IMG/VR virus record: IMGVR_UViG_3300036854_000037
Span: 1-61,708 of that record
Length of the DNA: 61,708 nt
Source: a virus
Lineage: Duplodnaviria; Caudoviricetes
Direction: 5' to 3' (one strand)
Shown here: piece by piece, positions 32,852 to 61,424 of the stretch
How the letters are laid out: the number at the start of each line of letters is the position of its first letter
Position numbering within the stretch: the first letter of the stretch is position 1
Position numbers and translations under genes: made by a program
Notes under the pieces: generated by a model
Database searches by the model: none
The model's input: only the letters and a program-made list of their open reading frames with translations
What the model was told of the DNA's origin: nothing

Positions 32852-34546
32852 TCAGCCTTGGCCGACCTGGTAAGCCTCGAAGCCTTCCGGGTCCTCGCGC
32901 CGCGCCTTCTGCATCGCCTCGGTGTTGCTGCAGTTGTCGCGCGACTTGATCGTAGCCACCCGCTTCTGGAACGAGGTGCCGCCGCCAGCCTTCGAGAGCC
33001 CCGCCTGGTGACCGTAGGTCTTGAAGGCTGTGCCGGCCGAACGATCTCCCGACTTCAGCATCTTCGACAGGAGCAGGCGCTCGTCCTGGTCGAGGTACTC
33101 CGCCAGGTTCTTGAGAAGGTGAGCCTTCTCCTCAACCGTACCGGGCAGGTGACCAAGCTCCTCCTCGGCAACCTTGGCAAACTCGAGCAACTCGCGGGTG
33201 GTGCGCTCATCGTCCAGCGCCTTGGCAACCCGCTCGGTCTCATCTGCCTGGGCCTTGAGAAGCTCGAAGAGGTCATGGCCGACGTCCGACTTGCGGATCA
33301 TGCGGTCGCCGATCTCGAGAGTCTCGTCCTGGAGGCGGGTGCGCTTGCCCATATGGCCCGTGCCGCCAATGGGGGTGGCCGAACCAGCGGCGATCTTGTC
33401 CTCCTCCTCCCCTTCGGTCGTAACGAAGCCCTCGCGAACCGTGGTCTTCTTCTTGCCCTTACCCTTGCCGCCGCCCGTCTCGCTGTCGTAGGCTGCCTTG
33501 CCCATATCGTCACCTTCATCGAGCTGATCCGCGTTGTCCTGGGTCACCTCCTGCCGAACGTCGGGAGCGTCCTCGGGATCGTCGCCGTCGTCCTCGGTAA
33601 TGGTGATCTGCGGACCCTTCTTCTTGTTGGTGCGGCCGAACAGCGCGGCAAGCCGACCGGCGATGTCGTCCTCGCTTCCAGAGTCCGAGCCGGGCTTCTT
33701 GGCCTTGAAGAGGGTGGTGCCATCGTCGGAGTCGTCGGACTCGTTACCGTCGTCGTCGAACTTCTCGATCTCGTCGTCATCCTCGCGCCGCTGGCGCTTG
33801 CTGAGGACAGAATCCAGCTTGCTGTTCAACGAGTCCATCTTCTTCCTGAGCTGCCCAAGATTCATTTCATCGCTCCTACTACCCAGACTCTTCCGGATGT
33901 ATCCCTCAATTCCCGGTAGCTCGTCCTTGGCCACCTGGAGGAAGTCGCTGGCTGACCTCCTCAACATAACCAACCTGTCCGTGCCCCCAAGATTAGGGTC
34001 ATCGAGAATTGAACGCAAGGATGTATCCAAGGCCTTGAGGTACATTCTGGCCTTGTCACCATCCGAACCATCGGACTTGGCAAGGGAGTTTGCCAGCCCG
34101 GGCTCGATCAAAAAGCCCTGGATGAACCTATCCAAACGATCATCCCGTTTCATGATCGCCGCGGTTGCACCAGCCTGTGCCGGGCGGTCAACCATCGACA
34201 ACTCGTCGATCTTAAACGACTTCATGCGTCGCTTACGAGACATGTCCGTGGGGCTCATCATCGACATGCGAGCCGAACCAGCGCTCGCATCACCTATCCC
34301 GCCCATTGATGCGGCCTTCCCAAGCGCGCGATCGATTTGAGCCACCACGTTTTGTCTTCCTCTACCACCCGGCTTGCGCATGCTCGGTACTCGCTCTGCG
34401 TGCGCTCGAAGGCGCCCCAATGCTTCTTTGTCCTTGGCGGCAAGCGCACGATCCAACGCGCGGTAGTGGTGCGTACCCCACTCAGACGCACCTCGTCGCG
34501 GCTGAAACTTGCCGCCTCCATCATGGTATGGGTTAAACTTTCTCAT
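32852..34546 (-). CDS. Scaffold protein carrying the ELSMVDRPA segment of a prohead protease
   Basis: KIDELSMVDRPAQAGA motif; acidic linker; C-terminal A..KA....P..Y helix; upstream of cement and capsid genes. Confidence 0.75.
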   Translation of the reverse strand: MRKFNPYHDGGGKFQPRRGASEWGTHHYRALDRALAAKDKEALGRLRAHAERVPSMRKPGGRGRQNVVAQIDRALGKAASMGGIGDASAGSARMSMMSPTDMSRKRRMKSFKIDELSMVDRPAQAGATAAIMKRDDRLDRFIQGFLIEPGLANSLAKSDGSDGDKARMYLKALDTSLRSILDDPNLGGTDRLVMLRRSASDFLQVAKDELPGIEGYIRKSLGSRSDEMNLGQLRKKMDSLNSKLDSVLSKRQRREDDDEIEKFDDDGNESDDSDDGTTLFKAKKPGSDSGSEDDIAGRLAALFGRTNKKKGPQITITEDDGDDPEDAPDVRQEVTQDNADQLDEGDDMGKAAYDSETGGGKGKGKKKTTVREGFVTTEGEEEDKIAAGSATPIGGTGHMGKRTRLQDETLEIGDRMIRKSDVGHDLFELLKAQADETERVAKALDDERTTRELLEFAKVAEEELGHLPGTVEEKAHLLKNLAEYLDQDERLLLSKMLKSGDRSAGTAFKTYGHQAGLSKAGGGTSFQKRVATIKSRDNCSNTEAMQKARREDPEGFEAYQVGQG

Positions 34547-34627
34547 AGTTAAGGTATCTTACACCCGATGGTGGTCGTGCCTTCATAGTTGTGCTAAGAC
34601 CCAGTGATACCATGCCGACCACCATCA
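34545..34627. repeat. 83-bp structured intergenic element, copy B
   Basis: See copy A; perfect GATGGTGGTCG/CGACCACCATC inverted repeat. Confidence 0.85.
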
Positions 34628-35758
34628 CCCTTCGACAGGCTCATCGATGAGCCGGTTACCCCCGATGCTAAACCCAGTGAACTCGCCAGACCTGAACCGC
34701 TCAAGCATGCGAGGATCGTCTGGCTTCACCCCGATCATAAGTCCTGTTCTCGAACCGCCAAGCCCCATAGCCTTGGAAATATCATCCGTGACAGGCCAAG
34801 CGTAAACTACCTCCCCCACGCGCTTGCCCTTATGCATGACTTTCAAGTCTCGTTTCGACATCATGAAATCCATCGACGCCCTCAACATAGCGTCTTGAGG
34901 GATGTGGTCACCTTGCGAGTCGAAGTACGGATCACCCTTCTCATCGCAGACGATAGCCCACCCGAACACCAGACCTAGTGGGTCGTTGGGGCCTGGGTTG
35001 CCGTGGTTGGGCGTCATCTTAGCGAGCGCTTGGGTGAATGTCATCGCTTTCAACAGACGCTTCTTGGAACCGCGCAGTCGATCTTCAAGGTCGTTGATGT
35101 CAGAACGCGTCCTCTGGCGTGATGCCTCCAGTTGCTTGACGCGCTGATCGTACAACTGGTACTCAGCGTCGAAGCGACGGTAGCGGCGGTCCCAATAATC
35201 TTCTGTACCCGGACCAGATGCCGCACCATAGAGGTAGTACGCATCTTCACGATTGGCAAACGCCTTGTCACGAAGGACCGTTGCTTCGCTGAGCTGAGCG
35301 TCGAAACGATCGTACTGCTCGTACAACGAGTCGAGCCGCTTACGATCCCGTGCATCCATGCCAGAGGTCTGAGGCCGCTCGACCGGCGCCTCCTCCTTCG
35401 GCTTGACTTCCTCAGGCGCTTGCTCGGTTGGCTTCTCTACTGGCTTCTCAGCCTGGGGTTTGGCGCGCGGCTTCCGTAGTTTGGGAGGAGGCGCCTTCTC
35501 CTTCGGCTTCTCCTTGGCCTTGGGTTTTGGTGCCGGCTTGGGTTTCGACTTCGGCTTGGCAGCAGGTTTTGCAGCGGGCTTCTTGCTAGGGGCCTTCGCC
35601 TTCATCTTACCCTTACCACCAGCTGATCCCTTGGGCTTGCCGGCGCCAGCGCCGCGACCTGTAGTCCAACGACCCTTGGAGTCCCGTGTCTGGTTCTCGT
35701 CGAACTCCGGGTAGCCCTTACCCAGGATGGGGCCGACGTTGAAGAGGTCCTCACTCAT
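34625..35758 (-). CDS. XkdF-like prohead protease with tagged, Lys/Pro-rich N-terminal extension
   Basis: LVFGWA..DSQGD..MH..G...GFSIGG; start MSEDLF at 35758. Confidence 0.85.
   Translation of the reverse strand: MSEDLFNVGPILGKGYPEFDENQTRDSKGRWTTGRGAGAGKPKGSAGGKGKMKAKAPSKKPAAKPAAKPKSKPKPAPKPKAKEKPKEKAPPPKLRKPRAKPQAEKPVEKPTEQAPEEVKPKEEAPVERPQTSGMDARDRKRLDSLYEQYDRFDAQLSEATVLRDKAFANREDAYYLYGAASGPGTEDYWDRRYRRFDAEYQLYDQRVKQLEASRQRTRSDINDLEDRLRGSKKRLLKAMTFTQALAKMTPNHGNPGPNDPLGLVFGWAIVCDEKGDPYFDSQGDHIPQDAMLRASMDFMMSKRDLKVMHKGKRVGEVVYAWPVTDDISKAMGLGGSRTGLMIGVKPDDPRMLERFRSGEFTGFSIGGNRLIDEPVEG
35666..35719 (-). repeat. KGYPE tag copy 1 (KGYPEFDENQTRDSKGRW)
   Basis: Translated motif in the protease gene. 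Confidence 0.9.
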
Positions 35759-35759
35759 C

Positions 35760-36599
35760 TCAAAAATGCCCCCGAACCGCAAACAGATCAACCTCAGCCT
35801 TCCCGAGCGAGCGACCAGACGTCCTGCGCATTATGGGAAGGCCAGTCACCATACCTTGGATCCAGTCCCAATTCGCACTCCCCGCTGTTCGCTTCGAATG
35901 CATGGCACTCAGCTTCGCCATAGCCCGCGTCATCTCCGTGCGTTGGGCCTTGAGGTCCCCCAACCTCTTGTAGGAATTGCGGTAGGCTTGCGAATTGCGC
36001 TTGAACTGAGTCATGCGCGCTTGCAGGTTACGAATGTTGCGAGCGACCTTGTCGCGCTCCTTCTTGGTTTTGGTATAAGCGGCGCGGATGGATTTGAGAG
36101 ACGGCTGCTTGGTCTTCTTACCCCGTGCTCGGCCCTCACTTACCCCACCACCCGCGCCGCCACCCCCTGACCAACGACCGTCTGAACCACGAGACTGGTC
36201 TGGATTATATTCAGGGTAGCCCTTCCAAAGTCCTCTATCCATGAGCCGGCGCCGCTTCTTACGCCCGCTCACATGCAACCGACCCTCAATCGAGGTTGAC
36301 TCCGGCGATCCTGGAGAGCCTGGGGCTGCGACCTTTTGCTGCTGAGTGGTCCACGAAGAGTAACTCAGCGAGGCGCCAGCCTTCTTAATCTTCTTGCCGC
36401 GAGCGGACCAGCGTCCGCCGCCCTTGGGGCGCTTGTAGGAGTGGCTTACAGCGCCCCACGCCTGTCTGTGGGCACTCTCGTCGCTGGCGCCGCCACTGAT
36501 GGCTGAGTTGACGACGTTGCGGAAGATGTCTTGGGCGTGACCCGGAAGGGTATGCGTGACAGGCTTAGGTAGTTGATCGTTCCGATCGTAGGGCATCAA
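35760..36599 (-). CDS. ChaB-domain protein with internal KGYPE tag and basic C-terminus
   Basis: MPY....LP..V...LP.HAQ.IF...NSA..A...AW.AV...Y. Confidence 0.8.
   Translation of the reverse strand: MMPYDRNDQLPKPVTHTLPGHAQDIFRNVVNSAISGGASDESAHRQAWGAVSHSYKRPKGGGRWSARGKKIKKAGASLSYSSWTTQQQKVAAPGSPGSPESTSIEGRLHVSGRKKRRRLMDRGLWKGYPEYNPDQSRGSDGRWSGGGGAGGGVSEGRARGKKTKQPSLKSIRAAYTKTKKERDKVARNIRNLQARMTQFKRNSQAYRNSYKRLGDLKAQRTEMTRAMAKLSAMHSKRTAGSANWDWIQGMVTGLPIMRRTSGRSLGKAEVDLFAVRGHF
36171..36224 (-). repeat. KGYPE tag copy 2 (KGYPEYNPDQSRGSDGRW)
   Basis: Translated motif. Confidence 0.9.
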
Positions 36600-38608: not shown

Positions 38609-39157
38609 TTAACTATCGCATCCAGGTCCAGCCTTGTAGGCATCCTTGATGTCACCAGAGCGCGCGTAGCCTGTGAACTCCTTCCAGGACTTCCAGCCAT
38701 TGGGGCAATGAAAACCCCACTCTCTGACCCGTGGTCCAATAATGAAGAGGCTCCAAACCGGGCTAGCACCAACTTCCAACCTATGAGCCATCTTACCAGA
38801 CCTGATGACTACACTCCCCTGGGCCCTGACGATGGACTTGGAAGGACCGGCTGGGTTGCTTGGGTCGACCGGAACATGCTCAATATAGTTGCCGACAAGG
38901 AGAATGGAGATGTTCCACCACGGGTGATCATGCAAGGCGCGGTTGTCGTCGCTCTTCTTGATGCGGTGAAGATAGGCCGCGATGCGAAGTCCCAAGCGAT
39001 CCCGATCCTCCTTGTCCTTGACGTGTGGATAGCGAAGCCACCAGCGGTCCATGTAACCTGGACCAATGTCAACATCAGGTACACCCAGGATTGCCGGGAG
39101 TACATAGCGCTTCACCAGATAGCGCCGAACAAGCTCTGGTATCCTCATCTCATCCAT
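38609..39157 (-). CDS. Cupin-fold phage protein
   Basis: YLH...SD...LHDHPW..E..H R..WSLF..G...EWGF. Confidence 0.7.
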   Translation of the reverse strand: MDEMRIPELVRRYLVKRYVLPAILGVPDVDIGPGYMDRWWLRYPHVKDKEDRDRLGLRIAAYLHRIKKSDDNRALHDHPWWNISILLVGNYIEHVPVDPSNPAGPSKSIVRAQGSVVIRSGKMAHRLEVGASPVWSLFIIGPRVREWGFHCPNGWKSWKEFTGYARSGDIKDAYKAGPGCDS

Positions 39158-40205
39158 TCTCCCCGAGGTAGTCGTCGACCTCTTGTTGTGAACTAAGTAT
39201 TTGATACGCGGTTGTGCAGCGACAATTGATCACTTCTTCGGGTGGTGCACTGGAATCACCAGGATGCATCAATTGCGCGCCGGACTCTGAGTCGAATGGC
39301 TCATCGATCTGACGCGCCTGACCATCAAGACCACGATGGGTGTCGCGTGTGCGAGAATCGTTGGTAGCCGACCATTGCTTGACCACAAACGCCCTGTCGA
39401 TGCCAGCCTGGTCGATGGCGTCGTCCATCGAGTTGGCGCGTACCTGCTCCGTAACCCGCAGCGACTCTGTGCGCGCAATCGTCTCAGCCCTGAGGTCCAG
39501 GAGTCGATCACGATAGCGCTCGACCATGTTGTCGATCGTGTCCTGGTCGATGAAGTCATTCTGATCGATGGCGTTCTCAACCGTGCTATCGAAGCGCCTG
39601 TCGCGTAGCTGACGATTGAGTGCCTGCGTGCTTGTGTTGTCCAAGAGGTTGCGGTAGCTGTCCACCATACCCTGCTGGTGGGGTGTCAACCCAATGACAT
39701 CCGACAGGGCGCGAGCGGTCTCAATTGGGTTCTGCCCTTCCTCTGCAGCGTCCGTGAGTATCTCCAAAACCTGATCCTGCTGCTCAGCTGTCAATCCCTC
39801 AATGTTGTCGAGGAGACTGGCGAACATCTCATCGACGACCTCAGATGGAGGTGGCTTGAAGCCAACGCCCACACTCGCCTTGCTGATACGCCCAGCAATC
39901 GAGTCGAGTTCGTGCGCCCAAATGATGGGTCCCATACCGCGGATGGCCTTCCTGAAATCATTGAAGTGCCCCGCCAGCAACTCGCCCGAGGTCAGCACGT
40001 CGCCACTACACAAAGACCAGGCGTCTTTCCTGATCGAATGCATGCAGTACAGAAAGTGCGACTTGATGTGCTGAGCACACTTCTCGAGTGTGCCCTCAAC
40101 GCGGATCAACTCCTCAGGCGGCGCCCTTCGACCTCTCTTGAGGAGGCGCTTGACCGGCGGTCCTGTGTGGAAGTTCCGAAAGCCATTCGCTCGTAGGAGC
40201 ACCAA
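39150..40205 (-). CDS. MuF/gp7-like minor head protein (no toxin extension)
   Basis: RAETIARTE, K.W..TND.RTR.TH..LDGQ, HPGD, EVINCRC. Confidence 0.9.
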   Translation of the reverse strand: MVLLRANGFRNFHTGPPVKRLLKRGRRAPPEELIRVEGTLEKCAQHIKSHFLYCMHSIRKDAWSLCSGDVLTSGELLAGHFNDFRKAIRGMGPIIWAHELDSIAGRISKASVGVGFKPPPSEVVDEMFASLLDNIEGLTAEQQDQVLEILTDAAEEGQNPIETARALSDVIGLTPHQQGMVDSYRNLLDNTSTQALNRQLRDRRFDSTVENAIDQNDFIDQDTIDNMVERYRDRLLDLRAETIARTESLRVTEQVRANSMDDAIDQAGIDRAFVVKQWSATNDSRTRDTHRGLDGQARQIDEPFDSESGAQLMHPGDSSAPPEEVINCRCTTAYQILSSQQEVDDYLGENG

Positions 40206-52185: not shown

Positions 52186-52386
52186 CTACAGCTGGGCAAT
52201 GGGTGCAGCGTCCAATTTGATCAACGCGCCCGTCACTGCGTCGTAGTACCCATCCTTCTCAGCGCGCATCTTCGCATTAGGCTTGAGCGCCACATGGCTG
52301 CCGTTGGGCAGGATCAGGTCCGCACGCTTCACCCCATCAACCGTGAAGATGCGGATCGAATTCCGGGGGATCGCATTCTTACTCAT
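52186..52386 (-). CDS. Small protein coupled to the metallopeptidase gene (candidate inhibitor)
   Basis: ATGA overlap at 52383-52386; 66 aa. Confidence 0.55.
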   Translation of the reverse strand: MSKNAIPRNSIRIFTVDGVKRADLILPNGSHVALKPNAKMRAEKDGYYDAVTGALIKLDAAPIAQL

Positions 52387-53933
52387 CCGAGGCTCCTCAG
52401 CGCATCCACTGACCCACTAAACGTGGTTAGCACCGCTTGCTGCGTCATCGATCTGTTGAAGAGGTACTTGCCGCTCGTCGGCCTGCCGTAGGTTGCTGTG
52501 TAAATCTCAGCGAACAGTTCCTGAGGAATGGATGAAGGCTCATAGGCCTTGGCGTAATAGTCCCGGACAGCCGGAGGTGCGAGTGCGTACTCGTGCAACA
52601 TGACCGGCGCCAACGCATGCGATATGGCAAACTCTTCACCTGGGATCGCGTAGTAGTCAAGTGCATGTGCGCTCTCATGGATAACGATCCGATTGATGTC
52701 ATCAAAAGGTGTGAAGCCAAACCTCTGGTTGCTCCAACCCTGACCCACAACAAGACCCATACCAGGATTGAAGAAGCCTGCGATATACCCACGCTCGGGA
52801 TCAATCTTAGGGTTGAGTGATGCAAACCGGCGCATATCGTAAAGGGCTGTTATCTGCAGGTTCTTCAAGACCTCGTAATGGTTCCGTGGTATCCTAGCCA
52901 TTGTGTCCTTGATCGCCACCATAACCTTCTCAGTACCAGGTTCAGCACGCACCCTGATGTAACGCTGTTCCTGCTCTTGCCTGGGTGGAGATGGTCGAGC
53001 CGTCGCACGCTGTTGACGTTGCTTCTCCCTGTAGCGCTCGCGTCGACGTACAGAGGCCGGGTCCATCCTGAGTTCGCTGATGCCACCAGCACCACCAGAC
53101 CATCGACCATCCTCACCCCGTGATTGATCAGGGTTGTATTCAGGGTAGCCCTTCACGAAGTAGTCGAGGCACTTGGATGTCGGCATTGTACCAGACGTCC
53201 AGTTCCTGATGGCTGAGACTGTCCTGGGGAAGCGGCGCAAGACGCCCTGTTGCGTCAGGCTGTAACCAATGAAGTCCCGCTCTCTTCCTCCCTGCGGTCC
53301 GTACATCGCTGCGTACACATCGGCGAACAGCTCCTTGGGGAGGCTGTCGGCTGAATAGTGCTCTGAGTAGTAGCGCTGCGAACGCGACAAACCATTGTAC
53401 TCAGACATGATGGTGCCAGCAAGCGCGCTCGAGAAGGCGAAGGGTTTACCAGGGATGGCGTTGTAGTCAAATGCATGCCCGAACTCATGCGTTGCCCAAC
53501 GCTCAACATTCTCAAACTCGATGAAGCCCCACTTGTTGTTGGTCCAACCTTCACCCACAACGAGTCCCAGGATTGGACTGTAGAAGCCGGCTGTGAACGT
53601 CAGGTCCTTGCGGTTGGGATCGATTTCAAGCATTCCCATCCTGGAATACTTCGCCATGTCATAGACGGCCTTTTTCGGTAGGTTCCGAAGGACAGCCTGG
53701 TGATCCTCAGGTAGCCGTGACATGACGTTCTTGATTGCCCGGCCGGCGTTGTCGGCTCCCCTCTCCTGGAGAAGCCTGATCGATGTATCTTGCTTGGACC
53801 AGTCAATGCCGCGCCGCTTGACCCTGTACGTCTTAGGGCGCTGGCGAGCCGAACCTCCTCCAGACCAACGTCCATCCTCACCCCGTGGTTGATCCGGATG
53901 GTATTCAGGATAGCCTTTGAATAGGTTGAGCAT
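52383..53933 (-). CDS. Tandem zincin metallopeptidase polyprotein, each domain preceded by a KGYPE tag
   Basis: HEFGH..ELFAD and HESAH..ELFAE. Confidence 0.82.
   Translation of the reverse strand: MLNLFKGYPEYHPDQPRGEDGRWSGGGSARQRPKTYRVKRRGIDWSKQDTSIRLLQERGADNAGRAIKNVMSRLPEDHQAVLRNLPKKAVYDMAKYSRMGMLEIDPNRKDLTFTAGFYSPILGLVVGEGWTNNKWGFIEFENVERWATHEFGHAFDYNAIPGKPFAFSSALAGTIMSEYNGLSRSQRYYSEHYSADSLPKELFADVYAAMYGPQGGRERDFIGYSLTQQGVLRRFPRTVSAIRNWTSGTMPTSKCLDYFVKGYPEYNPDQSRGEDGRWSGGAGGISELRMDPASVRRRERYREKQRQQRATARPSPPRQEQEQRYIRVRAEPGTEKVMVAIKDTMARIPRNHYEVLKNLQITALYDMRRFASLNPKIDPERGYIAGFFNPGMGLVVGQGWSNQRFGFTPFDDINRIVIHESAHALDYYAIPGEEFAISHALAPVMLHEYALAPPAVRDYYAKAYEPSSIPQELFAEIYTATYGRPTSGKYLFNRSMTQQAVLTTFSGSVDALRSLG
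53100..53153 (-). repeat. KGYPE tag copy 3 (KGYPEYNPDQSRGEDGRW)
   Basis: Internal translated motif. Confidence 0.9.
53865..53918 (-). repeat. KGYPE tag copy 4 (KGYPEYHPDQPRGEDGRW)
   Basis: N-terminal translated motif. Confidence 0.9.
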
Positions 53934-53936: not shown

Positions 53937-54512
53937 TTAAATGCCCTCATCAAACCCAAGGTCGTCCTGGGTGACAGAGATGCCATCCGTACCACTGGTG
54001 ATGAACTGCTCAAAGTCACCCTGACCACACAGAAACTGCCCAACGAGTTCCTGCACAGGCAACGGGAATCGATTGAGCTGTGCCGCAGTGCCCTCAGCGA
54101 GGCGGAACCACTCGATGTTGACCGAGCCTGCACCCAACCGTCTGATCTTCTGAACGCCTGGGACGTTGTTGTTGACCGCCTCGTTGCCATCGGTGAGCGC
54201 GAACGCCATCTCAACGGAGCCATCAATGATCTGCTGAGGAATGGTTTGATCATCCAAACCATCGATGCCGGTATTGGTTCGCGGCCACTGCAACGTCTGA
54301 CCGCTCAGCATAGTCGGCTCACCAAGCCAACACTGACGATCGAAGAGACGCGTCGCCGTGACGAGGGCAGAACCCTTCTGATCATCTGTCAGGTTGAACC
54401 AACCAGACGCCAGGAAGTTCGCCTGCAGGTAGAGATTTGCGTAGTCGAGCGTTGAGTAGGCATCATACGGCTGCGAGTTTACGATGACGACACTCTCATT
54501 AGCGTCGGTCAT
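53937..54512 (-). CDS. Head-tail adaptor (often annotated as DnaT-like)
   Basis: Y.TL..A..Y, AL..AT...D, Q.LQWPR, IP..I..G..E.A. Confidence 0.75.
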   Translation of the reverse strand: MTDANESVVIVNSQPYDAYSTLDYANLYLQANFLASGWFNLTDDQKGSALVTATRLFDRQCWLGEPTMLSGQTLQWPRTNTGIDGLDDQTIPQQIIDGSVEMAFALTDGNEAVNNNVPGVQKIRRLGAGSVNIEWFRLAEGTAAQLNRFPLPVQELVGQFLCGQGDFEQFITSGTDGISVTQDDLGFDEGI

Positions 54513-55114
54513 GGCATATGCCTCCAGATAAACCTCAGCGTGTCCAAAACCGGGTTGACGATATCAAAACCGTCACTGGGTACAGGAGCACGACCTCCAA
54601 AATAGAAGTAGGCAGCGAGTCCCACAAGGACAGCTGTGCCAACGACGTTGATGAAGATCGACTCCTGGGTGGCTGGGTCCAATGAGCCGAACCATTCCCT
54701 TACCGATGTCCGCACCTTCTGCAGGACACCAGCCGACGCCTGCTTCAATTCAGGCGCGCTGGGGGTGCCACCATCGGAGAGCATCGAGGCGACAGGCCTG
54801 ACAAGATCGAGTCCAGCCGTCTTCCCAGAACCAGAGGAGCTTGTCCACTTACCAGACCTATCCCGTGCCTCCTCAGATCTGTATTCTGGATAACCCTTCG
54901 TCACTGAGCGCAGCAACGACACAGATGCGCGCGCCATGTTGAGAACGGCATCAACGTAGTCGGCGGCCTGCCCCGTGAGCTTGATACGTTCCTTCTGCAG
55001 TCTGTTGATCAACGAGTCCAGACGCATGGGATTGCGCTCAGTGCGAGACAACCGCATGAGCGAGACCATCTCACGCAATACCTCATCGAGAACCAAAGGC
55101 GCTTGTGCTACCAT
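54509..55114 (-). CDS. KGYPE-tagged protein with C-terminal TM helix
   Basis: Tag at 54845-54898; IFINVVGTAVLVGLAAYFYF. Confidence 0.7.
   Translation of the reverse strand: MVAQAPLVLDEVLREMVSLMRLSRTERNPMRLDSLINRLQKERIKLTGQAADYVDAVLNMARASVSLLRSVTKGYPEYRSEEARDRSGKWTSSSGSGKTAGLDLVRPVASMLSDGGTPSAPELKQASAGVLQKVRTSVREWFGSLDPATQESIFINVVGTAVLVGLAAYFYFGGRAPVPSDGFDIVNPVLDTLRFIWRHMP
54845..54898 (-). repeat. KGYPE tag copy 5 (KGYPEYRSEEARDRSGKW)
   Basis: Translated motif. Confidence 0.88.
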
Positions 55115-55590
55115 GGCCTACTCAACCCCGCAGTCAAAACGCGCTGTGCATCGAGTGCCCATCCGTTAACCTCACGCTTCATTGAGTCAATGGCTGCCTT
55201 GCGACTCTTGACCTTCCTAGCGTTTATAACCTGAACGGCAGCATAGGCAGCATCTGGCGGTTCCTTCGCAAGAGTGTCGATCAAATCATAGGCTTTCTGC
55301 CTGATCGGAGCCATGTCAGCCCGCAACCTGCGGCCAGCCTCCTGTGAGCGGGATGGACCAAATCGTTCGGCGCGCTGACGCGCTTGGTTGATCTGCGAGC
55401 GCAATTTATTGAGCTTGGAACCTACTCCTTTGCCACGGGCTACCGCTGCCTTGTTGCCCACAGGTTTGGTCTTACCACGCGCTCGACCCTCACCGGCCCA
55501 ACGTCCATCATCACCCCTAACCTCGTCGGGGTCGTACTCTGGATAACCCTTGCCTAGGATCGGGCGCATCTTAAATAGGTCTTGAGTCAT
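55108..55590 (-). CDS. KGYPE-tagged basic protein
   Basis: Leader MTQDLFKMRPILGK resembles the protease leader MSEDLFNVGPILGK. Confidence 0.75.
   Translation of the reverse strand: MTQDLFKMRPILGKGYPEYDPDEVRGDDGRWAGEGRARGKTKPVGNKAAVARGKGVGSKLNKLRSQINQARQRAERFGPSRSQEAGRRLRADMAPIRQKAYDLIDTLAKEPPDAAYAAVQVINARKVKSRKAAIDSMKREVNGWALDAQRVLTAGLSRPW
55498..55551 (-). repeat. KGYPE tag copy 6 (KGYPEYDPDEVRGDDGRW)
   Basis: Translated motif. Confidence 0.9.
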
Positions 55591-58271
55591 TCCAAGAACC
55601 TCTCACCCAAACGAGCAAACTTCTCCTGAGGCAACCTGTACCTAGCCGTGGTTCCAAGGAGTAGAAACTTGCCAAGGGTCAGTCTGCTACCAGACTTGCG
55701 AACCCTGTCATGTGTGAAACGAAGCGGGAGCGCTGAGTTAGGTAGCTCTTGGTTAAGATGGGCAAGGCGGAAAGCCAAGTCAGGACCACCAGACTTGAGG
55801 ATCACATCGCGCACATAGTCAACAGTCTCCTTGTCAAGGGAACCCTCACCATGTGCCGCGAGCAAACGTGTGTCCACCTCATAAGCAAGTTTCCGCACCT
55901 CGTTCTCATCGGCAAGCTCGAAACCAAGTCGCGGCCAGACGTATCCACCACAGACACCACCACTACAAAACGGATTTGCACCCGACTCGAAAGCTATCTT
56001 ACGAACCTCCTCCATGATAGACGACACCCAGCCCTTGGCAGTGCGAGTTCCACCTGAGAGGATGAGCTTGGACGTTTCACCATTGTTGTCGTACAGCTTC
56101 CACTGGTACATCCGGTCCTTGACGGTATCGAAGGCCAGCTCATTGACACCCTTGCCGAGGATGTAGGTTGGTACATAACGACCAAACGAGTTGCTCATTG
56201 CGCGACCGATGGCGCGGGTCGCTGCGATCTCAGGTGTCGTCTGAACGAATAGACCAGAAACCCGATAGCCGGCTTCCTCGAACGCATCCATCAAATCGGT
56301 AGAGGCATCAGGCGATCTCAACGTCGCGTCATGGATGATATTGAGCCCCAGCTCGCGACCTCTGTCCTCGAGTTCCGATGCGAGTTCAGATGCCTCCTCA
56401 TGGTAGAGCGATGAGTTCCACCCGTGATACCCAGGCAAACCATAGTCTGCGTCACCCGCCTTGAACTGCTTGTTGTCGCCGCGCAGATCATCGGCATTGA
56501 CATAGAGATACTTATCCATGTCAGGCACAAAACCCGACTCCATGAGTGATGTGGTCTTACCCGACCCAGGGCGACCTCCCATGATGATCAGTTGCGGGTC
56601 TTCGCCTTCCGCTGGCTTGGCGCGCTCCAACGCGTCCTCAAGGCGTAACTCGATAATACGCTCATGCAGTGCCTGACGATCGGCTGTCCACGTACCGTCA
56701 GGGTTCTTGAAGCCCCCTTCCGAGACGAGCGCATCTGTGTGAGGCAGCTTGGAGAGGCGCTTGTTGGTATCGCGAATGTAGGCGCGCTGTTTGGGTGTGA
56801 GGCTCCTCATGAATGCGCGCTGGGATGGCGTTGGCTTCTCCCTCAGATGTGACCCGAGGAGATCGCGCGCCTCGTGCCCAGGCCGCAACTCGCCACCCTC
56901 ACCACCAAGCCATCGACCGTCAGGACCGCGCGTCTGGCTTGGATTGTACTCTGGATAACCCTTGGTCAATCCATATCCAACAACTGTGAAGCGGTAAGTG
57001 TCACGATCCTCCTTGAACCAACCACCAAAGCCAGCGCGTACCCTACCTGTTCCATCGAAGCGCAATCGCAAGCCGCGAGGGAGGATGAGTTCGTCCTCCT
57101 TATAACCAGGTGTAAACATAATACGGTCTACAGCACGCCAGAATGCCTTACCAGGGCCGATAGGTGTTCCCTGAGGAACTGCAATTTCCATGAGTTGCCC
57201 AAACCCACTTGCATGCGCGACATCCGGTGTAGCTGATGTATAACCAGCATTAACCAAAAGATCACCCTCCTTAAGTCCGCCTAGAATATCACGACCAATT
57301 CTAAGATCGTCTCCCACTAGAGAATTAAAGCCGCGGTACACAATACCATCCCGCTTGGTCTTGTGTGCTGCTATAAAGGCATCAAGTGCCACCACGACTT
57401 CATCGCCTGTTTGACCCAAAGACTCACCATTGCGCAATCGTCGGTTGAGGGTCATCGAATACATGGTACCTAAGTAGTTATCCCGAATGGTATTATATTG
57501 CTGCTTTGTCCATGAACCTATTTTCTCCGCATCGTCCTGATGCAATAAGTTGGTGGGGCGGCCAGCGCCCCCCACCCAACGACCATGTTCATCCCGTGAC
57601 TGATCAGGGTTGTACTCTGGGTAGCCCTTGTTGACCTTGGGTGACAGGACGAAGTCGTAGTGGTAAGAGTTACGGAAAAGTTGCACCTTACCAACAAACT
57701 TCAACTCCGTGTCGCGGGGGAGGAGGATCTCAGCCTCATCCGACCGGTCGTCAAGGAACAGAGCACCTACGTGGACACCAGGTAAGAGAGTGATACGCAT
57801 GCTATTATCGCCGAAGGTGCTGATCACATCGGCATGAACAGACGTTGACATGAAGCCTTTGTCAACCACAGAGTCCCCAGGCGTCAGGCTGTCAAACATC
57901 TCCAACCGTTTAATATTGGTACCCGCTGCCCTGTAGACCACAACCGGCTCAGTTATAATGTAGGACTTGGTATACACATCGAGGTTTGCGACGTGTTCCT
58001 CGATTTTCTCCCTGTTCAGGGGAGAGGCAGGGACGCGGATACCTCTCAAGTAACTATTGACTATCATGTACCCAGACGTACCATAATTCTTGACCGATGC
58101 TCTAATAGCCTCGGAAGGACGCTGCAGCTCCTGGATCGCACCACCAAGTGTCAGATGGAAAGTATCAGGCGCATCCTCACGAGCCCAACGACCATCAGGT
58201 GCGCGCCACTCATCGGGATTGAATTCCGGGTAGCCCTTGAGGACCAGGAGCACCACTACTTCCTCACTCAA
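55587..58271 (-). CDS. Toxin-like polyprotein: ADP-ribosyltransferase, ADP-ribosyltransferase, zeta-toxin-like P-loop kinase and an unknown domain
   Basis: VYRA/FMSTS/EAEILLPR; VYRG/YTSAT/EDELILPR; MGGRPGSGKT/NADD/HEEAS/DATL. Confidence 0.85.
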   Translation of the reverse strand: MSEEVVVLLVLKGYPEFNPDEWRAPDGRWAREDAPDTFHLTLGGAIQELQRPSEAIRASVKNYGTSGYMIVNSYLRGIRVPASPLNREKIEEHVANLDVYTKSYIITEPVVVYRAAGTNIKRLEMFDSLTPGDSVVDKGFMSTSVHADVISTFGDNSMRITLLPGVHVGALFLDDRSDEAEILLPRDTELKFVGKVQLFRNSYHYDFVLSPKVNKGYPEYNPDQSRDEHGRWVGGAGRPTNLLHQDDAEKIGSWTKQQYNTIRDNYLGTMYSMTLNRRLRNGESLGQTGDEVVVALDAFIAAHKTKRDGIVYRGFNSLVGDDLRIGRDILGGLKEGDLLVNAGYTSATPDVAHASGFGQLMEIAVPQGTPIGPGKAFWRAVDRIMFTPGYKEDELILPRGLRLRFDGTGRVRAGFGGWFKEDRDTYRFTVVGYGLTKGYPEYNPSQTRGPDGRWLGGEGGELRPGHEARDLLGSHLREKPTPSQRAFMRSLTPKQRAYIRDTNKRLSKLPHTDALVSEGGFKNPDGTWTADRQALHERIIELRLEDALERAKPAEGEDPQLIIMGGRPGSGKTTSLMESGFVPDMDKYLYVNADDLRGDNKQFKAGDADYGLPGYHGWNSSLYHEEASELASELEDRGRELGLNIIHDATLRSPDASTDLMDAFEEAGYRVSGLFVQTTPEIAATRAIGRAMSNSFGRYVPTYILGKGVNELAFDTVKDRMYQWKLYDNNGETSKLILSGGTRTAKGWVSSIMEEVRKIAFESGANPFCSGGVCGGYVWPRLGFELADENEVRKLAYEVDTRLLAAHGEGSLDKETVDYVRDVILKSGGPDLAFRLAHLNQELPNSALPLRFTHDRVRKSGSRLTLGKFLLLGTTARYRLPQEKFARLGERFLE
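56910..56963 (-). repeat. KGYPE tag copy 7 (KGYPEYNPSQTRGPDGRW)
   Basis: Precedes the zeta-like domain. Confidence 0.9.
57576..57629 (-). repeat. KGYPE tag copy 8 (KGYPEYNPDQSRDEHGRW)
   Basis: Precedes the second ART domain. Confidence 0.9.
58185..58238 (-). repeat. KGYPE tag copy 9 ([18 protein letters not shown])
   Basis: Precedes the first ART domain. Confidence 0.9.
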
Positions 58272-58618: not shown

Positions 58619-58640
58619 GGTCTCCTCCCCCTAGCAGGGG

Positions 58641-58817: not shown

Positions 58818-58818
58818 C

Positions 58819-60081
58819 TCAGAACTCTATCCCGAACTCTGCCAACTTCTTGATCTCTGCCTGGGCCTCATCCAGCGCGTCGGGGTAGAGCTGAACGAGG
58901 TAGCCTTCAACCTTCTCAGCGATCTGCTTGACCTGTTTGACCACCTCATCCTGCGACTCGGCATAGGCAACGATGGCGCCGATCTCAGGCATGCCGGCCG
59001 GATCAGGGACAACATAGTACTTCCCGTCGACGACCGCCAGGTTGCGCAGCTTGACGTTCTCGCGCAGATCATCGGGGAACTCGATGGCTTGCCAGTTGCG
59101 CTCACCAGCCCAGGCAGAATGGATCAGCAGTTCAGCCGCCCACGTACCCTTGTAGGATGGTTCGACCAGCACACCATCAGCCCCTTCCCAGAGCACCTCT
59201 GCAATGTTCTCCATCATGAGACCGAACAACTCCGAGGGAGGTGAGCCGAAGCGCGCACAAGGATCGATGCTGTAGGCCGTTCCATCCTTGGGAATACGAA
59301 GTTCTGCCGACCAGAAATTACGATACTTGTACGCCTTCAAGACAGGTGCGAACCGGGCGTTGACATCACGCACCTGTTTGGGCAGACCAGCATAGGGCTT
59401 CACGCGCCCGACATACCCCTTGTCCTTGACCTCGATGCCATAAAGCGTCTGCTTGGGGAATTGACCATCGATGCAGTAGCCATCGTAGCCAACCTCGACC
59501 GCATCGTTGATTGCATCCTCGACGATGAACTCGATCTTGTTGCGCTTGGCGCCAAGCTTGTGACCCAGCTCGTCAAGGCGCGGTTCGATCAGCTTGTAGT
59601 TCTTGGAGTAGAACGTCTCCATATCACCACGCGTCGCGCTCACCTTGATGTACTGATCGTCGTTCTTCTTGAGGTAGGCGCGCAACGCATCGAGCCCTGT
59701 GACAACCTTGTAGGGGCCGATGGTGATACCAAGGTCCTTCTGCAGGTCCTTGCTGACAGACCTGTCCAATTCCAGGTCTTCCCCTCTCCGTGATCCCCAA
59801 ACCCGCTTGCCCATCTCAACGAGATGGGTCTGGAGGGCACCATCGTAGACATCAGGGAAGACGAACAGGTCGACGTAGGGGGCGACATCCCAGATGTTGG
59901 TGACGCGCTCGACCCCGTCGATGCCCTTGCCGATCCACAGCGGATTGCTGTTCGGATAGCTGCTTATCCAGGGGCAGTAGTAGTAGACCAGATCGAAGTC
60001 ATTGGCGAGGACGCTCGCTATCTCAACGAAGAGCCCGTTATCATAAACGAGCGCCTTCTTCCCTGGATACAACTTTGCCAT
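58819..60081 (-). CDS. PurD-like ATP-grasp ligase
   Basis: LELDR..SK, YIK, FIVE, EVG.DG, IDPCARFGSP. Confidence 0.72.
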   Translation of the reverse strand: MAKLYPGKKALVYDNGLFVEIASVLANDFDLVYYYCPWISSYPNSNPLWIGKGIDGVERVTNIWDVAPYVDLFVFPDVYDGALQTHLVEMGKRVWGSRRGEDLELDRSVSKDLQKDLGITIGPYKVVTGLDALRAYLKKNDDQYIKVSATRGDMETFYSKNYKLIEPRLDELGHKLGAKRNKIEFIVEDAINDAVEVGYDGYCIDGQFPKQTLYGIEVKDKGYVGRVKPYAGLPKQVRDVNARFAPVLKAYKYRNFWSAELRIPKDGTAYSIDPCARFGSPPSELFGLMMENIAEVLWEGADGVLVEPSYKGTWAAELLIHSAWAGERNWQAIEFPDDLRENVKLRNLAVVDGKYYVVPDPAGMPEIGAIVAYAESQDEVVKQVKQIAEKVEGYLVQLYPDALDEAQAEIKKLAEFGIEF

Positions 60082-60096
60082 CGCAGCCCCATCGGT

Positions 60097-60822
60097 TTAG
60101 TCCATGCCTGTATTCCAACCAGGCCGCACACCTGCATACCGTCCCCCTGTCGCTGCCTTGCGATAGACCCAACGAGCCATCAGGTAAAGAGCGGTTGCTG
60201 TCACAGCAGCACCATAAACTGTCATGACCACACCACCTGTGGCAAGGCCACCCAAGCCTGCGATGAGAAGTGCGTGGGTGCTGGTCAGCTCCTGCAATAC
60301 ATGGTCGGCAAACGAGGGCTCGTACCAAACCTTGCCGTCATAGCTGCGCATGGTGTCCCAGGTCTTCTGCGCCTCGCGCGACATACGATCGGATGCCGCC
60401 TGCCGCTCAGCCTCCGACTTGGATGTCAGCCCATCAACGTCGCGCTTGATACGATCGAGGCCACCCTTGACCCCATCGTACTTGGCCCCCATGGATTTCG
60501 ACCACTCAGGCCGGCGATTGCGCTCACTGGAACTAGATTCCATTGAGTCCATCCAGTCGAGCTTGGCTCGCAACCAATCAGCATTCACACGAGAGGGTGG
60601 CTTACGACCGAACTTGCGCTCGTACTCAGAAGCGAGTTTTGCACGCTCTCCAGGCTTGGCACGACCTTCGCTGATACCACCAACAGAACCACCAGACCAA
60701 CGTCCATCCTCACCCCGTGACTGGTCAGGGTTGTATTCAGGGTAGCCCTTGCTTAAGACTGTCAGCAACCCATCGATGCGAGCGTCGAGGTCCGCCACAT
60801 CCTTCCACAGAGTCTGTCTCAT
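60097..60822 (-). CDS. KGYPE-tagged protein with hydrophobic C-terminal hairpin
   Basis: ATGA-coupled start MRQTLWK at 60822; ALLIAGLGGLATGGVVMTVYGAAVTATALYL. Confidence 0.72.
   Translation of the reverse strand: MRQTLWKDVADLDARIDGLLTVLSKGYPEYNPDQSRGEDGRWSGGSVGGISEGRAKPGERAKLASEYERKFGRKPPSRVNADWLRAKLDWMDSMESSSSERNRRPEWSKSMGAKYDGVKGGLDRIKRDVDGLTSKSEAERQAASDRMSREAQKTWDTMRSYDGKVWYEPSFADHVLQELTSTHALLIAGLGGLATGGVVMTVYGAAVTATALYLMARWVYRKAATGGRYAGVRPGWNTGMD
60697..60750 (-). repeat. KGYPE tag copy 10 (KGYPEYNPDQSRGEDGRW)
   Basis: Translated motif; 50/54 nt identical to copy 3. Confidence 0.9.
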
Positions 60823-61424
60823 GGCACCAAAACCTTGAGCGCGCCACCAATCGCCCGACCCAACGAGTCGACCGCCATCGGGATGGCCACTGATGCAACA
60901 GCGATGACGATAGCCGACAGGAACAGCGCAAACCATACCTTCTGCATGGTCTCCACTGTGTCACGAGATGGCAAGCCGATCCTCGCGTTGGCGACATCCA
61001 CAGATCGCATGACAGCGTCGCGGGAGTCAGCGGGCACACCTTGCTTGATCAGATGCTCCCTGATGGCAGCAGCGATCTGACGGCGTTGGGGTCCGATCTT
61101 GCGCTTGCCCTCGAGTGTTATCTCGCGAGGGGCTGAGGCGCCACCAGAGGTCCACTCACCCGACTGTGTGCGCGCCTCATCGGGATTGAATTCCGGGTAG
61201 CCCTTCTTCGTTTCTGTGGCCACCCGCTTGATCATGGGCATCAAGGCCGCCACAACGGCCTCTGCAGCGTTCTTGCGATGCTCCGTAGGGAGTGCCCGTA
61301 TGGCGCGAGCAACGCCCTGAGCGGCCCGCGCTGACGCAGCAATCGCCGTTCTGATGTCAGCGTCGGGGCTGCGCACCTTGTAAACGGGTGCACCGGACAG
61401 CACAACGACGCTCAAGCCGGTCAT
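60819..61424 (-). CDS. KGYPE-tagged protein with C-terminal TM helix
   Basis: [23 protein letters not shown]. Confidence 0.72.
61152..61205 (-). repeat. KGYPE tag copy 11 ([18 protein letters not shown])
   Basis: Translated motif. Confidence 0.88.

What the first reader, a model, noticed from the sequence alone, without database searches (positions are those of the whole stretch)
34505..61205. Shared 18-aa KGYPE...GRW tag on 8 unrelated late proteins: candidate capsid-loading and processing signal for an injected effector arsenal
Seen: the fixed-length motif K-G-Y-P-E-[YF]-x5-R-x3-G-[RKE]-W occurs 11 times, at 35666, 36171, 53100, 53865, 54845, 55498, 56910, 57576, 58185, 60697 and 61152. 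A variant (KFNPYHDGGGKF) starts the scaffold at 34505-34540. The downstream cargos are unrelated: the prohead protease, basic domains, 2 metallopeptidases, 2 ARTs, a zeta-like kinase and 3 TM proteins. In polyproteins the tag is repeated before each catalytic domain. It is absent from the early genes, tail genes and glyco cluster. Established: T4 internal proteins use a short capsid-targeting sequence, and T4 Alt (an ART) is processed by the prohead protease, packaged and injected. Inference: the tag is a portable address label that loads cargos into the prohead, cleavage at the Lys frees single-domain effectors, and these are delivered with the DNA. I know of no named system with this organisation, but I could not search.
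Basis: partly seen in the sequence, partly recalled or inferred. Interest (0 to 1): 0.93.

Follow-up and report, generated by a model that had tools for sequence, protein, structure and literature searches.

The report
Shared leader motif on phage head cargo
A conserved 20-residue peptide sits in front of every module of the enzymes that this phage, and hundreds of other uncultured phages, appear to carry inside the head, so it may be a readable mark of which phage proteins are packaged, cut apart and injected.

Summary
K-G-Y-P-E-[YF]-x5-R-x3-G-[RKE]-W occurs 11 times, all on the minus strand, in 8 ORFs; about 1e-8 are expected by chance. The copies are nearly saturated at synonymous sites, so the peptide is under selection.

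It is the local flavour of a much wider motif, [K]-x-[FY]-[DNS]-P-x-[QE]-x-R-D-x-x-G-[RK]-W-[TS]-x-G-G. That motif is found in 784 cluster representatives among 1.84 billion proteins. It repeats up to 9 times per protein at domain-sized spacing, always ahead of a module and never at a C-terminus. Its carriers are the phage "polyvalent proteins" of Iyer et al. 2017: ART, zeta kinase, Acb1, MuF fusions and others. It also follows portal domains (14 of 14 portal ORFs), heads prohead proteases and, as an NPxHD variant, heads the scaffold.

The best reading is a leader and junction signal of head-interior proteins. Encapsidation, cleavage and injection are inferred, not shown. No conserved receptor or protease family was found. 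No Pfam or NCBIfam model covers the motif, and my searches found no paper on it.

The parts
35666..35719 (-). tag 1, near the N-terminus of the XkdF prohead protease
   Evidence: conserved in the closest protease homologues P0152-P0156
36171..36224 (-). tag 2, internal, after the ChaB domain
53100..53153 (-). tag 3, before the second HExxH peptidase module
53865..53918 (-). tag 4, residues 6-23 of the double-peptidase ORF
54845..54898 (-). tag 5, in an ORF with a C-terminal hydrophobic segment
55498..55551 (-). tag 6, N-terminus of a 160-aa basic protein
56910..56963 (-). tag 7, before the zeta-toxin-like kinase module
57576..57629 (-). tag 8, before the second ART module
58185..58238 (-). tag 9, N-terminus of the ART-ART-zeta polyprotein
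60697..60750 (-). tag 10, in an ORF with a C-terminal hydrophobic segment
   Evidence: the database gene call P0088 starts 24 residues before the tag
61152..61205 (-). tag 11, in an ORF with a C-terminal hydrophobic segment
34505..34540 (-). NPxHD-type variant tag (KFNPYHDGGGKF) at residues 3-14 of the scaffold-position protein
   Evidence: the same variant stands at tag positions in L068 (9 copies), L027, L031 and P0142; the profile of the 11 tags does not detect it
34625..35758 (-). prohead protease: tag, basic low-complexity stretch, helical hairpin, XkdF (S78_2) domain
   Evidence: Pfam PF14550 at aa 272-379 of the longer ORF; AF2 model with helices 133-179 and 183-228 and domain 264-357
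35760..36599 (-). ChaB domain, tag, then a basic helical tail
   Evidence: Pfam PF06150, E 6e-13
52383..53933 (-). two tag-plus-HExxH (zincin-like) modules in one ORF
   Evidence: the family recurs in 29 of the 150 top tag-bearing proteins
54509..55114 (-). tagged protein with a hydrophobic C-terminal segment
55108..55590 (-). tagged basic protein
55587..58271 (-). polyprotein: tag-ART, tag-ART, tag-zeta kinase
   Evidence: Pfam PF03496 (2 stretches) and PF06414
60097..60936 (-). tagged protein with a hydrophobic C-terminal segment (likely start at 60822)
60819..61424 (-). tagged protein with a hydrophobic C-terminal segment
32852..34546 (-). scaffold-position protein with the variant tag at its N-terminus
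   Evidence: it lies between the protease and the cement/MCP genes; its only family hits are PHROGs of unknown function, so its function is inferred from position
39150..40205 (-). MuF head-morphogenesis protein, untagged (context)
   Evidence: Pfam PF04233, E 1e-17; no tag
31339..32394 (-). major capsid protein, untagged (context)
   Evidence: phrog_1005, E 6e-78

Best explanation
The KGYPE...GRW tag is this phage lineage's flavour of a widespread leader and junction peptide of about 20 residues. Its consensus is hydrophobic-hydrophobic-K-x-[FY]-[DNS]-P-x-[QE]-x-R-D-x-x-G-[RK]-W-[TS]-x-G-G-G. It marks proteins and protein modules that belong to the inside of the phage head. I propose that a phage-encoded head component reads it in trans during procapsid assembly. 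Tagged modules (effector enzymes, basic proteins, the protease and the scaffold) would thereby join the core built on the portal. Multi-module proteins would then be cut at or just before the tag, near the conserved Lys, so that single modules lie free in the head and leave with the DNA.

Shown: the motif is real. It is under protein-level selection. It always precedes a module. Its carriers are portal, MuF, protease and scaffold proteins and polyvalent effector proteins. It is confined to the head-gene neighbourhood.

For: 1. Selection on the peptide. The 11 copies differ at 191 of 385 codon comparisons at invariant residues (0.50), against 0.56 expected for independent codon draws (alignment).
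2. Breadth. 784 cluster representatives at E<=1e-3 and 133 at E<=1e-10. There are 592 instances in the 150 listed proteins, with R 99%, G 100%, W 91% and D 87%.
3. Leader geometry. Median spacing is 232 aa (5th percentile 127; n=442). The last tag leaves at least 147 aa downstream in 90% of proteins. The first tag lies within 40 residues of the start in 68 of 150.
4. Retention after gene fission. Stand-alone proteins keep the tag with as few as 5 residues before it. Separating domains cannot explain that.
5. Head-interior carriers. Of 81 tag-bearing ORFs scanned, 14 hold a portal domain from three Pfam portal families, and a fourth (Portal_Mu) appears in P0026. In 14 of 14 the tag lies C-terminal of the portal domain. 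By established portal structures (recalled), that end faces the capsid interior. Six of the 81 hold MuF.
6. Other carriers. 15 of 95 XkdF homologues carry a tag before the protease domain. The first 39 profile positions of phrog_12708, 'head maturation protease', match a tag. In cultured actinophages the weak tblastn hits fall on 'capsid maturation protease' genes in 11 of 11 records. Three were read: they start MSFNPRQPRD.., MAYNPLQARD.. and MARRKFNPRQPRD...
7. Cargo identities match proteins expected to act on arrival: ART, zeta kinase, Acb1 anti-CBASS, GNAT, nucleases and topoisomerase IB.
8. Clustering. In 30 of 30 records all tags lie on one strand, and in 22 of 24 multi-tag records they lie within 10 kb.
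9. Conservation against a changing background. In a syntenic relative, the adaptor and RNR genes keep 50-73% identity while the tagged proteins share only the tags.
10. Genome-specific flavours. Mean identity is 0.57 within a locus and 0.42 between loci, with synonymous difference 0.50. This fits co-evolution with a phage-encoded reader.
11. Upstream Lys. K sits at -5 or -6 in 53% of 503 non-KGYPE tags, against a 5.5% background. K/R is present in 83 of 83 KGYPE-type tags.
Against: No experiment or proteome places any tagged protein in a virion.

No candidate reader is conserved. In 30 tag-bearing records S78_2 was found in 8, S78 in 9 (union 13), and ClpP and S49 in 0. Three others carry a phrog_530 protease. 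MCP and portal families also differ. After masking the tags, no family other than the cargo supercluster is shared by more than 9 of 60 loci. A peptide this conserved, read by partners this diverse, is awkward.

A tag fused behind a portal domain needs no address label.

The upstream Lys is absent from about half of the non-KGYPE tags.

MuF, the adaptor and the MCP of the window are head proteins without a tag.

Within-genome flavours could reflect duplication history rather than co-evolution.

The hydrophobic-tailed tagged proteins could be membrane proteins of the infected cell rather than cargo.
Confidence: 0.5

Rival explanations
1. The tag is only a processing site. It is the punctuation at which a peptidase cuts polyvalent proteins into single modules, and it plays no part in loading. 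The peptidase would be the prohead protease or the zincin-like metallopeptidase that Iyer et al. proposed. Loading would be done by the portal or MuF anchors or by other means.
For: Tags sit at every module boundary and directly behind portal and MuF anchors. Iyer et al. predict processing by an MPTase without naming a site (PMC5512222, section 33 read). HExxH occurs in 50 of 150 tag-bearing proteins, against 6 after shuffling. The window encodes two such modules. A Lys plus hydrophobic residues are enriched just upstream of the tag.
Against: Stand-alone proteins keep the tag 5-35 residues from their start, where a cut would release nothing useful. The scaffold and the protease carry it at their N-termini. 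Twenty conserved residues are far more than known prohead protease sites need; T4's site is I/LxE (passage in PMC12991175). Neither one protease family nor the window-type peptidase is general: S78/S78_2 were found in 13 of 30 records, and the peptidase in 29 of 150 proteins and few loci.
Confidence: 0.25
2. The tag is an autonomous element. It would be a small folded turn that works without a partner, either as a self-cleaving [DN]-P site (as in FlhB/EscU NPTH or reovirus mu1 Asn-Pro, both recalled) or as a homotypic 'sticker' that lets tagged proteins condense with each other into the procapsid core.
For: It would explain extreme conservation without a conserved receptor. AF2 gives the core an ordered turn bridged between the Arg and the Trp: pLDDT 87 for the peptide alone with a 140-row alignment, and 72 inside the protease model. 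[DNS]-P precedes the Q/E in about 75% of tags. The sister form reads N-P-x-H-D. The Gly-rich spacer behind each tag gives a sticker-and-spacer layout.
Against: The [DN]-P pair is missing from part of the tags. In the window it is missing from the protease tag (D-E), tag 54898 (R-S) and tag 53918 (H-P). Ser takes the place of D/N in 20% of tags. A 20-residue peptide in a flexible linker has no known way to strain a bond. Genome-specific flavours are not needed for pure chemistry. No test of self-association was run.
Confidence: 0.1
3. The tag acts after injection and is read by a host factor. One possibility is that a cut before the aromatic residue exposes an N-terminal F/Y, which is a ClpS/ClpAP N-degron (recalled), and this limits the lifetime of toxic effectors. 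Another is that the tag directs modules to a host machine.
For: Host machinery would be a conserved reader across phages whose head proteins differ. The aromatic residue is nearly invariant (F 47%, Y 44%) and often follows K directly. The cargo includes enzymes that would harm the host if long-lived, such as ART and zeta kinase.
Against: The scaffold and the prohead protease carry the tag yet are not expected to be injected. Flavours are specific to each phage genome, which a shared host reader does not predict. There is no direct evidence of any kind.
Confidence: 0.07
4. The repeat is a DNA-level recombination junction for swapping effector cassettes, comparable to the conserved boundary motifs of polymorphic toxins (recalled), and the peptide itself has no function.
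For: Between syntenic relatives the cargo bodies differ while the tags persist. Modules of the same kinds occur in many orders and combinations.
Against: The copies are nearly saturated at synonymous sites while eight residues stay invariant. The longest shared DNA words are short. Selection is therefore on the peptide, not on the DNA.
Confidence: 0.03

Closest known systems
Phage-type polyvalent proteins (Iyer, Burroughs, Anand, de Souza, Aravind 2017, PMC5512222)
   Same: Both are large phage proteins that string together unrelated enzymatic domains (ART, zeta-like kinases, MPTase, 2H/Acb1-type phosphoesterase, GNAT, ParB-like). They are encoded beside portal, MuF and terminase genes. They are predicted to be packaged, processed and injected. 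The tag-bearing proteins found here have exactly these domains.
   Different: The paper's main text speaks of domains and of processing by an MPTase. It has no occurrence of 'linker', 'interdomain', 'spacer' or 'tryptophan', and no passage on a repeated boundary peptide (word finds; sections 29 and 33 read). Its FTP supplement could not be seen and may list the motif under another name. In the window most modules are separate genes, each with its own tag, rather than one giant protein.
T4 capsid targeting sequence on internal proteins IPI-III and Alt (recalled; Alt packaging and injection appear in passages of PMC5512222)
   Same: Both are short N-terminal peptides shared by otherwise unrelated proteins that end up inside the head. 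Both include an ADP-ribosyltransferase among the cargo. In T4 the peptide is linked to the prohead protease.
   Different: The T4 sequence is about 10 residues, lineage-restricted, used once per protein and removed at an I/LxE site by the S77 protease gp21. The tag here has a different sequence and is twice as long. It is repeated before every module, shared by phages with different protease, portal and capsid families, and also present on the protease, the scaffold and portal extensions.
MuF polymorphic toxins of temperate phages (Jamet et al. 2017, PMC5576092)
   Same: Toxin or effector domains ride on the head protein MuF. MuF fusions are among the tag carriers (6 of 37; 6 of 81).
   Different: The window's MuF gene is untagged and carries no toxin. 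The paper's text contains none of 'conserved motif', 'linker', 'cleav', 'junction', 'central domain' or 'pre-toxin'.
Encapsulin cargo-loading peptides and the C-terminal capsid-targeting tail of the HK97 protease (both recalled, not searched)
   Same: These are short portable peptides that load unrelated cargo into an HK97-fold shell.
   Different: They are usually C-terminal, bind a defined pocket of one shell protein, are single-copy and share no sequence with the tag. No binding of the tag to the MCP was tested here.
P1 Dar system (DarA, DarB, DdrB, Hdf; passages of PMC5512222; PMC12810830 seen in a search listing only)
   Same: These are anti-defence proteins incorporated into the head in an ordered way, processed proteolytically and injected.
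   Different: No shared tag is reported for them in the passages I read. Incorporation there depends on specific protein partners.

Membership tests
Phage-type polyvalent protein system (Iyer et al. 2017) | One polypeptide combines two or more domains with disparate activities | tested here: met
   ORF 55587-58271 holds ART, ART and a zeta kinase. ORF 52383-53933 holds two HExxH modules. Other window modules are single-domain genes.
Phage-type polyvalent protein system (Iyer et al. 2017) | Encoded among virion head genes of a portal-terminase phage | tested here: met
   MCP, cement, XkdF protease, MuF and the Ad1 adaptor lie in the same minus-strand block. Portal and terminase were not detected in this 73%-complete record.
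Phage-type polyvalent protein system (Iyer et al. 2017) | A zincin-like metallopeptidase is present | tested here: inconclusive
   There are two HExxH motifs and a weak hit to phrog_4415 'peptidase' (E 9.5e-7), but no Pfam hit at E<=0.01.
Phage-type polyvalent protein system (Iyer et al. 2017) | Proteins are packaged in the head and injected | not testable with these tools
   This needs virion proteomics or injection assays.
T4-type capsid targeting sequence | A short N-terminal peptide is shared by unrelated head-internal proteins | tested here: met
   Here the peptide is also internal and repeated.
T4-type capsid targeting sequence | The peptide ends in an I/LxE site cut by an S77 (gp21-type) protease | tested here: not met
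   The tag has no I/LxE consensus. The window's protease is XkdF/S78_2.
T4-type capsid targeting sequence | The peptide is necessary and sufficient for encapsidation | not testable with these tools
   This needs fusion and deletion experiments.
MuF polymorphic toxin | An N-terminal MuF domain is fused to a C-terminal toxin domain | tested here: not met
   The window's MuF ORF (351 aa) has only the MuF domain. Such fusions exist among other tag carriers.
Encapsulin-type cargo-loading peptide | A terminal peptide binds the luminal face of the HK97-fold shell protein | not tested
   No tag-MCP prediction was run.

The most novel reading that the evidence does not exclude
The motif is a general, portable 'head-interior code' of tailed phages. 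By itself it would specify membership of the procapsid core in lineages with unrelated capsid, portal and protease families. It might work through multivalent sticker-like contacts among the tags on portal extensions, scaffold, protease and cargo. After cleavage it would remain as the N-terminal signature of every injected module. If so, the injected effector and anti-defence arsenal of uncultured phages could be read directly from sequence, and foreign proteins could be loaded into heads with a 20-residue tag.
Probability: 0.3. Interest if true: 0.9.

Novelty: new variant of a known kind. Interest (0 to 1): 0.75.

Why it matters
Which phage proteins travel inside the head and enter the cell with the DNA is known for only a few model phages, and finding out needs virion proteomics. 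A conserved, searchable peptide in front of each such module would turn that question into a sequence search. It would give a catalogue of candidate first-strike effectors and anti-defence enzymes across metagenomes, including Acb1, ARTs, kinases, nucleases and many modules with no known family. It would also supply the missing 'punctuation' for the predicted processing of polyvalent proteins, and a candidate short tag for loading cargo into phage heads.

The wide conservation of the peptide, set against very diverse head proteins, is a puzzle in its own right.

Tried and rejected
1. Complex prediction of the tag (alignment A2) with the XkdF protease domain (A4, residues 250-377) gave no verdict: score 0.00 against a mark of 0.32, and the controls were not run. 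It counts neither for nor against binding.
2. megablast of 31000-40300 against cultured phages found no match.
3. tblastn of the multi-tag proteins P0001 and P0015 against cultured phages hit only ordinary domains (ParB-like, MuF, peptidase), not tags.
4. The hit of a window tag in Brevundimonas phage Gurke lies on the strand opposite to the annotated gene, so I take it as chance.
5. A scan of GTDB genomes for the KGYPE flavour returned one locus, matching residues 4-14 only, in a Bacteroidales MAG. I judged it not a real tag.
6. tblastn of a consensus-like tag against plasmids found no match at E<=10. Sensitivity for 36 residues is low.
7. Scans of the tag peptides found no Pfam family at E<=10, no NCBIfam family and only two weak PHROG hits (phrog_28825, E 0.043; phrog_38358, E 0.0042).
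8. I rejected one protease family as the universal reader. I also rejected the window-type metallopeptidase in that role.
9. I rejected the idea that N-P is a universal self-cleavage pair, because several tags lack it.
10. Literature searches for the motif strings or for a described boundary motif found nothing relevant.

Full report
**What is in the window**

The window is a complete IMG/VR viral record of 61,708 bases, estimated 73% complete. Replication genes lie on the plus strand (0-12 kb). A long minus-strand late block follows: tail genes, MCP (31339-32394), a cement protein, a scaffold-position protein, an XkdF-type prohead protease, a ChaB protein, MuF, a glyco/methyltransferase cluster, RNR, and then an array of mostly unassigned genes running to the contig end. 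No portal or terminase was detected. They probably lie beyond 61708, upstream of the array.

**The observation**

Chance expectation from residue frequencies is 9e-9, and 200 shuffles gave none. A profile of the 11 copies finds those 11 and nothing else in the record at E<=10.

The copies lie in 8 ORFs:
- the protease (N-terminal);
- the ChaB protein (internal);
- a double HExxH peptidase (before each module);
- a 160-aa basic protein (N-terminal);
- an ART-ART-zeta kinase polyprotein (before each module);
- three ORFs with a hydrophobic C-terminal segment.

At the DNA level the copies vary at third codon positions. At the seven invariant degenerate residues, 191 of 385 pairwise codon comparisons differ (0.50), against 0.56 expected for independent draws from the genes' codon usage. 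The copies are therefore old, and the peptide, not the DNA, is conserved.

**The motif is not private to this phage**

A profile search of 1.84 billion cluster representatives gave 784 proteins at E<=1e-3, 133 at E<=1e-10 and 6 at E<=1e-30. The 150 listed are mostly very long proteins (up to 3849 aa) with 1 to 9 copies, median 4.

Two flavours exist. The full KGYPE[FY] form accounts for 80 of 592 instances. The commoner core form lacks GYPE. The overall consensus is [K]-[KAE]-[FY]-[DNS]-P-[DSN]-[QE]-[PA]-R-D-[ED]-x-G-[RK]-W-[TS]-x-G-G-G, with R 99%, G 100%, W 91% and D 87%.

The geometry is that of a leader:
- Successive tags are a domain apart: median 232 aa, 5th percentile 127, n=442.
- The last tag is followed by at least 147 aa in 90% of proteins.
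- The first tag lies within 40 residues of the start in 68 of 150 proteins.
- N-terminal tags are preceded by 5-35 residues, often hydrophobic.

**Who carries it**

Pfam was run on 37 of the 148 non-window top hits. It gave MuF (6), Portal_Mu (1), zeta toxin, ART and ART-PolyVal, Acb1 anti-CBASS, GNAT, topoisomerase IB, histidine phosphatase, 2'-5' RNA ligase, cysteine dioxygenase, a PI3K-like kinase and HNH. Twelve proteins had no family.

An exact back-translated pattern found 119 stretches in IMG/VR, and 80 loci were fetched with flanks. Many loci hold several adjacent tagged ORFs, as the window does.

Pfam was then run on 81 tag-bearing ORFs of at most 760 aa, out of 118 unique ones. Results:
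- 14 ORFs with a portal domain (Phage_portal, Phage_portal_3, Phage_portal_2), with the tag C-terminal of the portal domain in 14 of 14;
- 6 with MuF;
- others with ART, zeta, Acb1, kinases, two kinds of nuclease toxin domain, DUF7178, DUF3626, DUF1353 and a glucosaminidase;
- 34 with no family.

By established portal structures (recalled), the portal C-terminus faces the capsid interior. A tag plus module hanging from it is therefore inside the head.

These carriers are the phage-type polyvalent proteins of Iyer et al. 2017. That paper predicts packaging, metallopeptidase processing and injection (PMC5512222; abstract, passages and sections 29 and 33 read).

**Protease and scaffold**

Among 95 homologues of the window's XkdF domain, 15 (the window's own included) carry a tag upstream of the protease domain. 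The five closest share the leader DxFxxGPILGKG....

The first 39 profile positions of PHROG family phrog_12708, 'head maturation protease', match a tag in L035.

In cultured phages the only tblastn hits of single tags, weak as they must be for 32-36 residues, fall on genes annotated as capsid or head maturation protease. These are in cluster-H-like mycobacteriophages and Nocardia phage P3.1:
- 4 of 6 records;
- 11 of 11, some annotated only as hypothetical at the same place;
- 3 of 5.

I read three of these genes. They start MAYNPLQARDRKGRW, MSFNPRQPRDRFGRW and MARRKFNPRQPRDLRGRW. They encode very basic proteins. Each lies between the portal gene and a JAMM/M67 peptidase gene, ahead of the MCP; MuF is annotated in DrLupo and Konstantine, but not in P3.1.

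The scaffold's KFNPYHDGGGKF is a true sister form. KFNP[YNH]HDERGRF occupies tag positions nine times in a 2811-aa ORF that also has two standard tags. It also occurs in three other proteins.

**Where it is in genomes**

In 30 larger tag-bearing records, all tags of a record lie on one strand in 30 of 30. In 22 of the 24 records with two or more tags, they span at most 10 kb. They lie in or near the MuF/portal region (and for seven loci).

A syntenic relative of the window (L001/L003) keeps the adaptor and RNR genes at 50-73% identity, yet its tagged proteins share only the tags with the window's.

**What reads it**

I found no conserved partner. In the 30 records:
- S78_2 in 8 and S78 in 9 (union 13; 7 of the 16 records at least 90% complete);
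- ClpP in 0 and S49 in 0;
- a phrog_530 protease in three others.

MCP PHROGs differ: phrog_1005, phrog_264 and phrog_771. Both siphovirus- and myovirus-type tails occur. After masking the tags, single-linkage clustering of ORFs from 60 loci leaves only the cargo supercluster (51 loci) as a widely shared family. The next family reaches 9 loci. The window-type HExxH module occurs in 29 of the 150 top proteins and in few loci.

Against a universal host reader or pure chemistry stands the flavour of the tag, which is genome-specific. Mean identity is 0.57 within a locus (204 pairs, 25 loci) and 0.42 between loci (5256 pairs), with a synonymous difference of 0.50 within loci. This could also be a trace of common descent.

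**Structure**

AF2 gives the tag core an ordered turn with a bridge between the invariant Arg and Trp. For the 36-residue peptide with a 140-row alignment, pLDDT is 87 over residues 11-20. The same bridge appears at residues 25 and 31 in the full protease model, with pLDDT 72. That model also shows a long helical hairpin between the tag and the protease domain.

I could not inspect coordinates, so docking in cis is unknown. The one complex job returned no verdict.

**Reading**

The retention of the tag at the start of stand-alone proteins, its presence on scaffold and protease, and its position behind portal domains together point to a signal of head-interior membership. It is more than a mere spacer.

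Its place at every module boundary, the enriched upstream Lys and hydrophobic residues point to processing there as well. K sits at -5 or -6 in 53% of 503 non-KGYPE tags against a 5.5% background, and K/R in 83 of 83 KGYPE-type tags.

I rank the readings as follows:
- combined leader and junction signal: 0.5;
- processing site only: 0.25;
- autonomous element (self-cleaving or self-associating): 0.1;
- host-read post-injection signal: 0.07;
- DNA-level recombination junction: 0.03, contradicted.

None of the functional steps is shown.

**Novelty**

The system (packaged polyvalent effectors, MuF toxins, T4-style targeting peptides) is known. The conserved modular tag appears not to be.

No Pfam family matches the tag peptides at E<=10, and no NCBIfam model matches. 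Searches of 8.1 million open papers and 0.36 million preprints for the motif strings returned nothing relevant. Searches for a boundary motif in polyvalent or MuF proteins also returned nothing. The texts of the two key papers do not mention it, by word finds.

Subscription journals, and the FTP supplement of PMC5512222 with its 40 unnamed LPD domains, were not visible.

Noticed in passing
window 34625-35758 and homologues P0157-P0245: Homologues of the window's XkdF protease are often fused to ChaB (PF06150) and Acb1 anti-CBASS (PF23474) domains, according to the precomputed Pfam column. Acb1 is also a tagged module behind portal domains (L029, L059). A 2026 preprint (PMC12991175, passages read) reports that CBASS senses prohead protease activity, so Acb1 riding on the protease or portal may be a counter-measure.
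   Followed up: partly
window 35740-35800: The ChaB ORF ends ...EVDLFAVRGHF and stops one base before the protease ATG, whose leader reads MSEDLFNVGPILGKGYPEF. Relatives have ChaB and XkdF in one protein (P0157, 617 aa). This looks like a gene fission, or a duplicated leader.
   Followed up: no
L005 6630-7076, L127 7734-8162, L128 5772-6230: In the actinophages DrLupo, P3.1 and Konstantine, a JAMM/M67-type metallopeptidase gene directly follows the tagged basic 'capsid maturation protease' gene. The tagged protein itself shows no obvious protease domain by eye, so its annotation may be doubtful.
   Followed up: no
L068 2936-11368 (minus strand): A 2811-aa ORF in a 108-kb viral record carries nine near-identical KFNP[YN]HDERGRF tags and two QxRD-type tags. 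It is the clearest case of both tag forms in one protein.
   Followed up: partly
window 36730-37416 and 38609-39157: An outer-membrane beta-barrel gene (PF13505) and a cysteine-dioxygenase-like gene (phrog_4786) sit inside the head module between ChaB and MuF. A CDO_I domain also occurs as a tagged module in P0035.
   Followed up: no
window 40114-49771: A block of FkbM-type and other methyltransferases, a GT8-like glycosyltransferase and a weak capsule-synthesis hit lies in the late strand between MuF and RNR. It splits the tagged genes into two groups 17 kb apart.
   Followed up: no
window 58292-60081 and 53937-54512: Three untagged genes lie inside the tagged array: a 420-aa ORF with no family, a 108-aa ORF (phrog_30212) and the Ad1 head-tail adaptor (DnaT_2).
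   Followed up: no
P0169: A prophage protein of Chelativorans sp. AA-79 is 61% identical to the window's protease domain. This hints at an alphaproteobacterial host for this phage group.
   Followed up: no
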